Positions 9,730 through 10,962 of a stretch of 16,531 bases of DNA are shown here, piece after piece. Every line of letters starts with the position of its first letter. Within the stretch, counting starts at the first letter, position 1. The notes below the pieces were generated by a model. It was not told the DNA's origin, searched no databases, and saw only the letters and a list, made by a program, of their open reading frames with translations. The position numbers and the translations under genes are program-made. Location: the UHGV virus genome UHGV-1602447. The stretch is one strand, 5' to 3'. Source of the DNA: a virus.

Positions 9730-9852
9730 CTTCATCGTCACGTAGCTGGTAACCAGTGGCCTGAAGAGACGTTTGGGTGATTCCAATTGTGATTAATAAA
9801 AAACCGATAGTGCAACATGTTATTGTAAATTGTTGATATAGCAAGGTATCAC

Positions 9853-10755
9853 ATGAGCCAAAATCTTGATTCAACACTAGAAACATACATTTCTTGGCAG
9901 TTAGAGCAATTTAAAAATAACTTTTTCCCAAGCTGCGACGTCATAGCGTACTACGGTGGTATCTTTCCATGGTCAAAAGAAGTTTACCAACCAAAACTTG
10001 AGGCTATTGGGGAGATGGCTAACAGTCGTACCAATAGATTTCTAGTTATTATACTCAATACAAATGGTGGCTCTGTTGAGTCTGTGGAAAAAATGGTAGA
10101 AATTACAAGGCATTTCTATCAAGAGGTATATTTTATCATTCCAGATATGGCCATGTCGGCAGGCACAATATGGTGTATGTCTGGAGATAAAATTTACATG
10201 AACTATGCTTCTTCATTAGGCCCCATTGACCCTCAAGTGCAATCCTCTGACGGTAAATGGGTTCCTGCTTTGGGATACCTTGATAAAGTTGAAGAAATGA
10301 TTACTAAATCCAGAGAAGGAACCATTACCCAAGCTGAACTAATGATGCTTAGTCAGTTAGATCTTGCGCACTTAAGGAGATACGAGCAAGCCAGAGAGCT
10401 ATCAATAGACTTGCTTAAGAAGTGGCTTGTAGAGTATAAATTCAGAGAGTGGACGGTTCATCAAGGTAACACAAAACGAGGAAAGCTAGTTTCCAAGAGG
10501 GAAAAAGAAGCAAGAGCTAAAATGATCGCTACCGCTCTTAGTGACAACGGAAAGTGGCATTCTCACGGAAGAACGATAGGAATAAATACTCTTATCAATG
10601 ACTTAAGAATTAAAGTAGAAGACTTTACATACGACAAAGATTTTAGCATGGCGTTAAAAAATCTGCACAACGTCATTAATGAATACATGTATAAGACAAA
10701 TCGACAGGTTCTTGTTCTGTCTTCATTCCCCTTCTCAGAACAAAGTGAGTCATAA
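9853..10755 (+). CDS. ClpP/S49/SDH-fold serine peptidase-like protein (300 aa), cI-linked moron
   Basis: ORF track 300 aa. NTNGGSVE (approx. res 69-76) and MSAGT (approx. 101-105) are spaced like the oxyanion loop and nucleophile Ser of ClpP-class peptidases; possible His near res 237-239. RBS AAGG; AT-rich segment by hand count. Confidence 0.6.
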   Translation: MSQNLDSTLETYISWQLEQFKNNFFPSCDVIAYYGGIFPWSKEVYQPKLEAIGEMANSRTNRFLVIILNTNGGSVESVEKMVEITRHFYQEVYFIIPDMAMSAGTIWCMSGDKIYMNYASSLGPIDPQVQSSDGKWVPALGYLDKVEEMITKSREGTITQAELMMLSQLDLAHLRRYEQARELSIDLLKKWLVEYKFREWTVHQGNTKRGKLVSKREKEARAKMIATALSDNGKWHSHGRTIGINTLINDLRIKVEDFTYDKDFSMALKNLHNVINEYMYKTNRQVLVLSSFPFSEQSES

Positions 10756-10926
10756 ATGAGCAAAGACAAATCACTGACACAGCAAGTGGCAGAAATACTT
10801 AGCAAGCAAAAAGTTAGCGAGCAAGGTAAAATGATTCAATCATTAAAGAACAAAGGATTGATCAACAAGCCTGTTTTTACTTTGGCTTATGGACCTGATA
10901 CTACAGTCTGCCAAATGCACCAATAA
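10756..10926 (+). CDS. 56-aa hydrophilic hypothetical protein, translationally coupled to the peptidase gene
   Basis: ATG abuts the peptidase stop (TAAATG at 10753-10758). Translation MSKDKSLTQQVAEILSKQKVSEQGKMIQSLKNKGLINKPVFTLAYGPDTTVCQMHQ. Followed 10 nt later by a terminator. Below ORF track cutoff. Confidence 0.45.
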   Translation: MSKDKSLTQQVAEILSKQKVSEQGKMIQSLKNKGLINKPVFTLAYGPDTTVCQMHQ

Positions 10927-10936
10927 CAAAACCCCA

Positions 10937-10962
10937 CCCGGCCACCGCGCCGGGTTTTCTTT
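10937..10962 (+). terminator. intrinsic terminator ending the cI-moron transcription unit (tIMM-like)
   Basis: CCCGGC-caccgc-GCCGGG hairpin (10937-10954) followed by TTTTCTTT (10955-10962). Confidence 0.7.

What the first reader, a model, noticed from the sequence alone, without database searches (positions are those of the whole stretch)
9730..10962. AT-rich two-gene moron in the rexAB slot: ClpP/SDH-fold serine peptidase plus coupled 56-aa protein, a candidate undescribed exclusion/defence module
Seen in sequence: a 300-aa ORF (9853-10755) starts 121 bp after the cI stop on the same strand. Its stop abuts the ATG of a 56-aa ORF (TAAATG), and a clean intrinsic terminator follows (10937-10962). 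By hand count this segment is roughly one-third G+C, against about half in the flanking phage genes, which points to separately acquired cargo. The larger protein carries NTNGGSVE and MSAGT motifs spaced like the oxyanion loop and nucleophile Ser of ClpP/S49/SDH peptidases; its C-terminal half is Lys-rich and unassigned. Established knowledge: in lambda this position holds rexA-rexB, expressed from pRM in the lysogen, and lambdoid immunity regions are recurrent sites for lysogen-expressed anti-phage cargo. Inference: a protease-based exclusion or abortive-infection function, or another lysogenic-conversion function, with the small protein as partner or regulator. I cannot name this gene pair as a known system.
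Basis: partly seen in the sequence, partly recalled or inferred. Interest (0 to 1): 0.8.

Follow-up and report, generated by a model that had tools for sequence, protein, structure and literature searches.

The report
Protease-plus-small-partner cassette replacing rexAB
In this lambda-like prophage the classic exclusion genes rexA-rexB are replaced, base for base, by an uncharacterised two-gene unit (a ClpP-fold serine protease and a 56-residue partner) that moves between bacteria of many phyla, which makes it a good untested candidate for a new protease-based anti-phage or toxin-antitoxin-like system.

Summary
ORF300 (9853-10755) and ORF56 (10756-10926, TAAATG junction) are real genes under purifying selection. 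They are followed by an intrinsic terminator, and their G+C is 37.7% against about 47% in the flanks.

ORF300 is a divergent SDH-family (PF01972) ClpP-fold serine protease. S102, K145 and H238 are invariant, and the "unassigned" C-terminal half is a conserved part of the family.

- The cassette occupies the rexAB slot exactly. In prophages with true lambda cI, lambda homology ends at the cI stop and resumes at the last base of rexB. The window keeps a 28-nt fossil of lambda cI.
- The small ORF is a conserved partner. It follows the protease in 145 of 162 loci from many phyla, with a median gap of 9 nt.
- The pair is a discrete mobile unit. It lies behind at least four cI types. In other species 90% DNA identity stops at the module borders.

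In phage BP-4795, which shares this cI, the slot holds a PD-Lambda-2-like defence cassette.

No PADLOC or Pfam model and no paper that I found describes the pair. An anti-phage or toxin-antitoxin-like role is the best inference but is untested. Defence-island association outside prophages is weak.

The parts
9025..9729 (+). Context: cI-type repressor (234 aa, Peptidase_S24 C-terminal domain). It is the upstream gene, and the cassette is probably co-transcribed with it.
   Evidence: Pfam Peptidase_S24 at 59 bits. RefSeq annotates it as a LexA family regulator in APEC37. It is 95% identical in DNA to BP-4795 cI.
9754..9781 (+). 28-nt fossil of the 3' end of lambda cI (codes QWPEETFG, then a stop). 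It marks the left recombination junction of the cassette.
   Evidence: blastn places lambda 37253-37226 on window 9754-9781 at 96% identity. The same bases form the true end of lambda-type cI in L010. The fossil is also present in L002.
9782..9852 (+). Cassette leader. It travels with the protease gene behind different cI genes and has no strong sigma-70 consensus. The AAGG at about -10 is a likely ribosome-binding site.
   Evidence: Homology to BP-4795 ends at 9781. Homology to L005, L010, L011 and L002 starts at 9754-9768. The promoter scan found no + strand site between 9730 and 9852.
9853..10755 (+). SDH-family ClpP-fold serine protease, 300 aa. Invariant residues include S102 (AMSAGT), G72-G73 (oxyanion-loop region), K145, H238 (WHSHGR), and D126, D144 and D257.
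   Evidence: - PF01972 at 41 bits against a gathering score of 31.3.
- NF047768 at 54.5 bits, below its cut-off of 250.
- phrog_11747 at E 2e-99.
- A profile search of the PDB aligns S102 with the catalytic Ser of protease 1510-N and of ClpP.
- Invariant columns come from the 21- and 55-sequence alignments.
- dN/dS is 0.045.
10756..10926 (+). Conserved small partner, 56 aa. The single-sequence model has two N-terminal helices and a C-terminal beta-hairpin that carries the family motif G-L-I-N-K-P-V-F-T-L-A-Y-G-P. Its position suggests translational coupling (TAAATG).
   Evidence: - phrog_28875 at E 2.5e-29.
- An HMM built only from 33 non-enterobacterial downstream ORFs hits it at E 2.9e-4 among 8863 ORFs.
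- A family-member ORF follows the protease gene in 145 of 162 loci, with a median gap of 9 nt.
- No Pfam family matches.
- dN/dS is 0.21.
- The AlphaFold2 single-sequence model has pLDDT 73.
10936..10962 (+). Intrinsic terminator, homologous to the lambda sequence that begins at the last base of rexB (the t_imm position). It belongs to the conserved phage backbone and not to the cassette.
   Evidence: The terminator scan gives a 7-pair stem with 6 G-C pairs and a T-run. Lambda 35825-35712 aligns to window 10936-11054. Homology to BP-4795 resumes at 10932.
11143..11187 (+). Context: OL/pL-like region, with repeated TTTATCA half-sites and a promoter-like site. The N gene follows at 11378-11650.
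   Evidence: Promoter-like site at 11159-11187. The half-sites were read from the sequence. N_peptide PF25694 matches at E 2e-32.

Best explanation
What is shown:
- Window 9782-10931 is a self-contained, horizontally mobile two-gene module.
- It encodes a cytoplasmic SDH-family ClpP-fold serine protease and a cognate partner protein of about 56 aa.
- In lambdoid prophages it has replaced rexA-rexB exactly, between the cI stop and the terminator that precedes OL.

What is inferred:
- The pair is transcribed with cI from the maintenance promoter, so it is made in the lysogen.
- It works as a protease-based anti-phage (exclusion or abortive-infection) or toxin-antitoxin-like module.
- In this model the partner binds the protease through its conserved C-terminal hairpin motif and keeps it inactive or targeted.
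- An infecting phage removes, titrates or triggers cleavage of the partner. The protease then cuts phage or essential host proteins and blocks phage production.
For: Slot:
- Prophages L010 and L011 carry true lambda cI and cro. Lambda homology runs to the cI stop (37231) and resumes at 35825, the last base of rexB, with the cassette in between.
- The cassette lies behind at least four unrelated cI types.
- In 24 of 58 non-redundant viral contigs the upstream gene is an S24 repressor, at protease identities down to 48%.

Slot content elsewhere:
- Lambda has rexAB.
- BP-4795, with the same cI, has PD-Lambda-2_A/B-like genes, a system reported to protect against phage (PMC9519451).
- bstA lies at the same place, and the cI-N region is described as a hotspot whose cargo shares the repressor promoter (PMC8585504).

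Expression:
- No consensus promoter lies between cI and the protease gene, and one terminator follows the pair.

Module integrity:
- The partner ORF follows the protease gene in 145 of 162 loci with a median gap of 9 nt.
- No third gene is conserved among 526 neighbours.
- About 90% DNA identity between different species stops at the module borders.

Active enzyme:
- S102, K145 and H238 are invariant in 55 sequences.
- S102 aligns with the catalytic Ser of 1510-N and ClpP.
- dN/dS is 0.045.

Other:
- G+C is lower than in the flanks.
Against: - There is no functional data of any kind.
- Neither protein matches a PADLOC model. I found nothing in the DefensePredictor paper or its held supplements.
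- Outside prophages the immediate neighbours are mostly housekeeping genes such as GroEL, PGI, PEPCK and GatB. Only 3 of 140 are type I R-M specificity subunits, so defence-island association is weak.
- None of 50,697 sequenced phage isolates carries a close homologue.
- The partner-as-inhibitor idea rests only on gene order, coupling and a conserved motif.
- The protease-deleted, partner-only arrangement is rare, in 3 of 5426 genomes, so it gives no support for an antitoxin role.
- No usable structural model of the protease was obtained.
Confidence: 0.45

Rival explanations
1. The pair is a selfish addiction (toxin-antitoxin-like) module with no dedicated anti-phage role. The protease is toxic when the labile partner is lost. 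The pair persists because it stabilises whatever DNA carries it, including the prophage.
For: - It is a discrete 1.2-kb unit that moves between species and lands in unrelated places.
- The two genes are tightly coupled.
- Its distribution across phyla is patchy at 45-55% identity.
- Its neighbours are mostly housekeeping genes rather than defence islands.
- It replaces or alternates with a HigB-type cassette and sits beside HicAB in L002.
Against: - No toxicity data exist.
- The small protein has no significant DNA-binding or antitoxin family match. Arg_repressor scores 16.9 bits, below its cut-off of 27.
- The recurrent placement directly after prophage repressors is the placement of lysogen-expressed defence cargo.
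- Many toxin-antitoxin systems also defend against phage, so this rival overlaps the main explanation.
Confidence: 0.2
2. The pair is a lysogenic-conversion or regulatory protease that serves the prophage or the host in another way. Examples are turnover of specific host or phage regulators (tuning of the lysis-lysogeny decision or of induction) and proteostasis under stress. In this reading the small protein is its dedicated substrate or adaptor, as the NfeD protease is paired with stomatin.
For: - The closest solved relatives are the NfeD protease 1510-N and ClpP. From memory, 1510-N cleaves the product of its operon partner, the stomatin PH1511.
- The module lies next to ordinary chromosomal genes in many phyla.
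- It lies adjacent to S24 repressors, which would fit a role in repressor circuits.
Against: - The module occurs without any phage context in most of the distant genomes, so it cannot depend on phage regulators.
- It is accessory and mobile, not syntenic, even among close relatives.
- It scores below the thresholds for NfeD, SppA and ClpP, and no stomatin-like partner is present.
Confidence: 0.2
3. ORF300 is a virion (head-maturation or scaffold) protease, or a housekeeping signal-peptide peptidase, that has been misplaced by mosaicism.
For: Weak N-terminal similarity to head-maturation protease families (phrog_53 at E 1.4e-6, NF045542 at 24.6 bits) and to SppA (TIGR00706 at 20 bits).
Against: - All these scores are far below the curated cut-offs of 120 and 155 bits.
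- The gene is in the immunity region on the cI strand, not in a head module.
- The family also occurs outside phages and always with the small partner.
- No hydrophobic signal or membrane segment is apparent in the sequence.
Confidence: 0.03

Closest known systems
Lambda RexA-RexB (abortive-infection/exclusion pair expressed with cI)
   Same: Identical genomic position at base resolution, between the cI stop and the terminator before OL. Both are two co-oriented genes behind cI. Both are presumably lysogen-expressed from pRM.
   Different: There is no sequence similarity. RexB is a membrane protein and RexA a cytoplasmic sensor, whereas here there is a soluble ClpP-fold serine protease and a 56-aa soluble partner. 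No exclusion phenotype is known.
SDH family Clp-fold serine proteinases (Pfam PF01972; NCBIfam NF047768)
   Same: The Pfam score is above the gathering threshold. The nucleophile Ser motif and a downstream invariant His and Asp occur in the order Ser, Asp, His. RefSeq names the E. coli copies this way.
   Different: It scores only 54.5 bits against the equivalog cut-off of 250, so it is a divergent subfamily. That subfamily is defined by an obligatory small downstream partner and by mobility. I found no experimental work on any member.
NfeD/1510-N protease with stomatin, and ClpP and SppA (ClpP-fold Ser proteases)
   Same: These are the best solved-structure matches. S102 aligns with the catalytic Ser, and the invariant K145 lies about where the catalytic Lys of 1510-N would fall. 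NfeD is also an operon-paired protease and substrate.
   Different: It scores below the family thresholds (NfeD1b_N 28.9 against 40, CLP_protease 17.5 against 20.2, SppA 20 against 155). It has no membrane domain, no stomatin partner and no Clp ATPase context.
PD-Lambda-2 (HigB-like toxin, Xre-peptidase and a third gene) and BstA: other cargo of the cI-N slot
   Same: They occupy the same slot behind the same or similar cI. They are small toxin-antitoxin-like or abortive-infection cargo, and PD-Lambda-2 also contains a peptidase domain (PMC9519451).
   Different: The proteins are unrelated. The PD-Lambda-2 peptidase is of the ImmA/IrrE metallopeptidase type fused to an HTH. The pair studied here has no PADLOC match.

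Membership tests
SDH family Clp-fold serine proteinase (PF01972 / NF047768) | Score at or above the Pfam gathering threshold | tested here: met
   41 bits against 31.3, E 1.6e-10, residues 64-199.
SDH family Clp-fold serine proteinase (PF01972 / NF047768) | Score at or above the NCBIfam equivalog cut-off (250 bits) | tested here: not met
   54.5 bits. It is a divergent subfamily, not an equivalog of the curated archetype.
SDH family Clp-fold serine proteinase (PF01972 / NF047768) | Catalytic Ser, Asp and His in that order along the chain (family description recalled from Pfam) | tested here: inconclusive
   S102, D126, D144 and H238 are invariant in 55 sequences, and D170 is nearly so. S102 aligns with the catalytic Ser of solved ClpP-fold proteases. 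Which Asp is used, and whether His or K145 is the base, could not be decided without a reliable model.
ClpP (PF00574) | Score at or above the gathering threshold | tested here: not met
   17.5 bits against 20.2, N-terminal part only.
SppA/S49 and NfeD proteases | Family HMM score above the cut-off; membrane association; Ser-Lys dyad | tested here: not met
   TIGR00706 scores 20 against 155, and NfeD1b_N 28.9 against 40. No hydrophobic segment is seen in the sequence. An invariant K145 exists, so a Ser-Lys mechanism is not excluded.
Phage head-maturation protease (ClpP-related) | Family HMM score above the cut-off, and location in the head-morphogenesis module | tested here: not met
   NF045542 scores 24.6 against 120. 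The gene lies between cI and N.
RexAB-type exclusion system | Homology to RexA or RexB | tested here: not met
   Neither protein matches any PADLOC model. In the blastn comparison, lambda rexA-rexB (37226-35826) aligned nowhere in the window or in L010.
RexAB-type exclusion system | Position between cI and the terminator before OL, on the cI strand | tested here: met
   The breakpoints are at the cI stop and at the last base of rexB.
RexAB-type exclusion system | Expression in the lysogen, and exclusion of superinfecting phage | not testable with these tools
   This needs RNA-seq of a lysogen and plaque assays.
Type II toxin-antitoxin module | Two small adjacent co-transcribed genes that are mobile and patchily distributed | tested here: met
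   TAAATG junction. Median gap of 9 nt in 145 loci. Homology between species is limited to the module.
Type II toxin-antitoxin module | One product is toxic and is neutralised by direct binding of the other; the antitoxin is a DNA-binding autoregulator | not testable with these tools
   The only hint is a sub-threshold winged-helix match of ORF56 (Arg_repressor, 16.9 against 27 bits). Complex prediction was not possible.
Known anti-phage defence systems (PADLOC-DB v2.0) | Match to any system model | tested here: not met
   Zero families for both proteins at E up to 1.
Anti-phage defence systems in general | Enrichment next to known defence genes or in prophage cargo hotspots | tested here: inconclusive
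   Prophage hotspot: yes. 24 of 58 upstream genes in viral contigs are S24 repressors, and the slot is shared with PD-Lambda-2-like and rexAB cargo. Defence islands in chromosomes: weak. 3 of 140 immediate neighbours are type I R-M S subunits and the rest are mostly housekeeping.

The most novel reading that the evidence does not exclude
The pair founds an undescribed, phylum-spanning class of mobile two-gene systems in which the effector or toxin is a ClpP-fold serine protease. Its dedicated partner of about 60 aa would hold it in check by acting as a pseudo-substrate through the conserved (Y/F)-x-L-(P/A)...DTIG/GP hairpin. Phage infection would release the protease, giving abortive infection. 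This would be a protease-toxin type of toxin-antitoxin or defence system that prophages place in the rexAB slot.
Probability: 0.3. Interest if true: 0.8.

Novelty: new variant of a known kind. Interest (0 to 1): 0.6.

Why it matters
- The region between cI and N of lambdoid phages is a proven source of lysogen-expressed anti-phage systems such as RexAB, BstA and PD-Lambda-2-like cassettes.
- Here a base-for-base replacement of rexAB carries a gene pair that no defence catalogue or paper I could search describes.
- That pair is a conserved mobile unit in Proteobacteria, Bacteroidota, Acidobacteria, Planctomycetota and other phyla.
- If it protects against phage or acts as a toxin-antitoxin pair, it would add a soluble ClpP-fold protease with a small protein regulator to the known effector types.
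- It would also give a compact 1.2-kb system that is easy to test in E. coli.
- If it does neither, it is still an unexplained, widely transferred protease and partner module.

Tried and rejected
The single-sequence model of the protease was unusable (pLDDT 46), so I ran no fold search.
I used pattern scans of genome and viral collections instead.
- I first read the roughly 340 partial E. coli matches as orphan copies of the small gene, which would have been an argument for an antitoxin. A direct search showed only 3 such genomes. The rest match only the shared flanks, so I dropped the argument.
- I looked for a conserved third gene and found none among 526 neighbours.
- I looked for a Pfam family for the small protein and found none, for the window copy or for ten distant members.
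- A hit of ORF56 to a 1932-aa repeat protein (P0124) is probably a chance repeat resemblance.
- An Rfam scan of 8500-11700 found nothing.
- My guessed operator palindrome did not match. Only repeated TTTATCA half-sites can be stated.
- Literature searches for the SDH family, PF01972, DUF114 and ClpP-like proteases in defence found nothing relevant.
- Brenes and Laub 2025 (Cell Host Microbe 33:1004), a screen of E. coli prophage defences, is not held, so I could not check it.
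Full report
**1. What is in the sequence**

The window is the early region of a lambdoid prophage.
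- cro lies on the minus strand at 8678-8911.
- A 234-aa cI-type repressor with a Peptidase_S24 domain is at 9025-9729 on the plus strand.
- It is followed by a 300-aa ORF (9853-10755) and a 56-aa ORF (10756-10926) whose ATG directly follows the TAA stop.
- An intrinsic terminator comes next, with a stem at 10936-10955 and a T-run to 10962.
- After it come a pL-like promoter at 11159-11187 and an N gene at 11378-11650.

The G+C dip is real but smaller than stated: 37.7% for 9782-10931 against 46.4% for the window and 44.7% for cI.

Both ORFs are under purifying selection against a 92%-identical allele, with dN/dS of 0.045 and 0.21. Each matches a PHROG family of unknown function.

**2. The large protein**

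- It passes the Pfam threshold for SDH_protease, PF01972 (41 bits against 31.3).
- It scores below threshold for NfeD1b_N and CLP_protease.
- It is far below the NCBIfam cut-offs for the SDH equivalog (54.5 against 250), for head-maturation protease and for SppA.
- RefSeq names the E. coli copies 'SDH family Clp fold serine proteinase'.

A search of 5.8 billion proteins gave 4334 relatives. Most of the 120 listed were full-length, at 290-300 aa.

In alignments of 21 and 55 sequences the invariant positions include G72-G73, S102 (AMSAGT), D126, D144, K145, W235, S237, H238, R240 and D257. The C-terminal half is therefore a conserved part of the enzyme.

A profile search of PDB sequences found only distant relatives: the NfeD protease 1510-N (E 9e-5), ClpP and SppA. 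S102 aligns with their catalytic Ser. Counting along the printed alignment puts it at Ser97 of 1510-N, a residue number I recall from memory.

Both a Ser/His(/Asp) set and a Ser/Lys pair are conserved.

**3. The slot**

Prophages L010 and L011 encode a repressor that matches the lambda cI sequence as I recall it, apart from two residues. The DNA alignment to lambda confirms the identity.
- In L010, homology to lambda runs from cro through OR and cI to 37231.
- It resumes at 35825, the last base of the rexB coding sequence.
- The protease-partner cassette lies in between.

The cassette therefore replaces rexA-rexB base for base.

The window has a different cI but keeps a 28-nt fossil of the lambda cI 3' end at 9754-9781. 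Its terminator region, 10936-11054, is homologous to the lambda sequence just after rexB.

Phage BP-4795, H-19B and many Stx1a phages share this window's cI and cro at 95% identity. Their homology stops at 9781 and resumes at 10932. Their slot holds genes that match PD-Lambda-2_A, PD-Lambda-2_B and PD-T4-9_C models. PD-Lambda-2 is a reported anti-phage system (PMC9519451).

The cI-N interval is described as a mosaic hotspot that also holds bstA, with cargo presumed to share the repressor promoter (PMC8585504).

The identical 300-aa protein is indexed in 1311 blocks of the public assembly collection, and the eight places shown are all E. coli-type lambdoid prophages. There it sits behind at least four different cI types. 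One copy is in a prophage carried on an mcr plasmid. Among 5426 complete E. coli genomes, 17 carry the full cassette.

**4. The small protein is a conserved partner**

Simple sequence searches find only a handful of enterobacterial relatives. Synteny shows much more.
- In loci fetched from one-genome-per-species and viral collections, a short ORF (53-91 aa among recognised family members) starts right after the protease gene in 156 of 162 loci.
- 145 of these are recognised as one family, with a median gap of 9 nt and a median length of 66 aa.
- An HMM built only from 33 non-enterobacterial copies (Bacteroidota, Acidobacteria, Nitrospirae and others) hits the window's ORF56 at E 2.9e-4 among 8863 ORFs. 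Its hits to ORFs of the window and of loci L001-L018 all lay immediately downstream of the protease gene.
- The shared pattern is an N-terminal helical part followed by G-(L/I/V)-x-x-(K/P)-P-x-(Y/F)-x-L-(P/A)-x-x-(DTIG or GP).
- In a single-sequence model (pLDDT 73) the motif lies in a beta-hairpin that follows two helices.
- No Pfam family covers it.
- All 58 database relatives are short (51-115 aa) and carry no functional name ('hypothetical protein' or none).

**5. The pair is a mobile unit**

- Full-length protease homologues at 45-55% identity occur in gamma-, beta- and alpha-proteobacteria, Campylobacter, Bacteroidota, Acidobacteria, Ignavibacteria, Nitrospirae, Planctomycetota, Treponema and an archaeal MAG.
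- Among 526 flanking ORFs of 80 loci, no gene family recurs in more than four loci.
- Between different Flavobacteriaceae species, and between Pseudomonas species, DNA identity of about 90% covers only the stretch from a few tens of bases upstream of the protease gene to the end of the partner gene. It then stops.
- In viral contigs the gene just upstream is an S24 repressor in 24 of 58 non-redundant cases, and other HTH regulators are common.
- In non-viral genomes the immediate neighbours are mostly housekeeping genes, and only 3 of 140 are type I R-M specificity subunits.
- Close homologues are absent from 50,697 sequenced phage isolates and rare on plasmids, at 7 of 72,556 records.

**6. 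Interpretation**

Shown: a real, conserved, horizontally mobile protease-partner module sits exactly where lambda keeps rexAB.

Inferred: it is co-transcribed with cI. No consensus promoter lies in the 123-nt gap and a single terminator follows the pair.

The best-supported function is a protease-based anti-phage or toxin-antitoxin-like activity in which the partner restrains or directs the protease. I put this at about 0.45. It rests on position, on the cargo found at the same slot in other phages, and on the module's mobility, not on any assay.

Rivals:
- Pure addiction module: 0.2.
- Another lysogenic-conversion or regulatory protease with a dedicated substrate, as in NfeD-stomatin: 0.2.
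- Misplaced virion or housekeeping peptidase: 0.03. Scores and context argue against this one.

The weak defence-island signal outside prophages is the main argument against a defence role.

**7. Novelty**

Neither protein matches PADLOC-DB v2. I found nothing in the DefensePredictor paper or its held supplements. Ten full-text searches found no description of this pair. One directly relevant paper, Brenes and Laub 2025, could not be read.

I therefore rate it a new variant of a known kind: lysogen-expressed cargo in the cI-N hotspot with a previously undescribed architecture. The function is untested.

Noticed in passing
window 9754-9781: A 28-nt fossil of the 3' end of lambda cI (codes QWPEETFG, then a stop) lies after this phage's own cI stop. 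The same fossil, partly duplicated, lies upstream of the protease gene in L002. It records past recombination with a lambda-immunity phage.
   Followed up: yes
L004 2862-4203 (phage BP-4795 ORF22-20): Sister phages with the same cI and cro carry a three-gene cassette in this slot. It matches PD-Lambda-2_A, the first 125 positions of PD-Lambda-2_B, and PD-T4-9_C. It appears to be a hybrid or shortened version of known defence systems.
   Followed up: partly
window 11998-12363 (+): A 121-aa protein matches PF17420 'Superinfection exclusion gene product 17' (P22 gp17-like) at E 1e-54. It lies in the pL operon downstream of N.
   Followed up: no
window 3783-4715 (-) and 5082-5687 (-): The nin region holds a 310-aa protein with a PAPS-reductase domain and a 201-aa HNH_3 plus AP2 endonuclease. 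The endonuclease ORF overlaps ORF 4652-5167 (not scanned; presumed NinB-like from its position), which suggests an inserted homing-type endonuclease.
   Followed up: no
L169 (plasmid pSM107_MCR, NZ_CP130669.1): The complete cI-protease-partner arrangement lies inside a lambdoid prophage segment carried on a 111-kb plasmid whose name indicates mcr.
   Followed up: partly
L002 4748-4909 and 6279-6868: In the 92%-identical variant of the cassette, an extra 53-aa 'transmembrane anchored protein' lies between cI and the protease gene. A HicA/HicB pair lies convergent just downstream.
   Followed up: no
L003 4893-5240: Three complete E. coli genomes keep only the small partner gene behind cI. The protease gene is deleted up to its last eight or so codons.
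   Followed up: yes
window 9725-9742: A perfect 6-bp hairpin (cgtgac ttcatc gtcacg) straddles the cI stop codon. No T-run follows on the plus strand, and its role is unknown.
   Followed up: no
L166 3809-5537 (Gordonia phage BeeGee gp31-32); L167 3932-5441 (Shewanella phage MuM16-1 p15-p16): The only SDH relatives in sequenced phage isolates are 26-29% identical. They are followed by proteins of 185-212 aa instead of the small partner, and may be a different subfamily with a different partner.
   Followed up: no
P0124 (1932-aa metagenomic protein): Seven tandem repeats containing 'LLNLPAFSLGSDTAIC' match the C-terminal motif of ORF56 at E 4e-10. This is probably a repeat-inflated chance resemblance.
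   Followed up: partly
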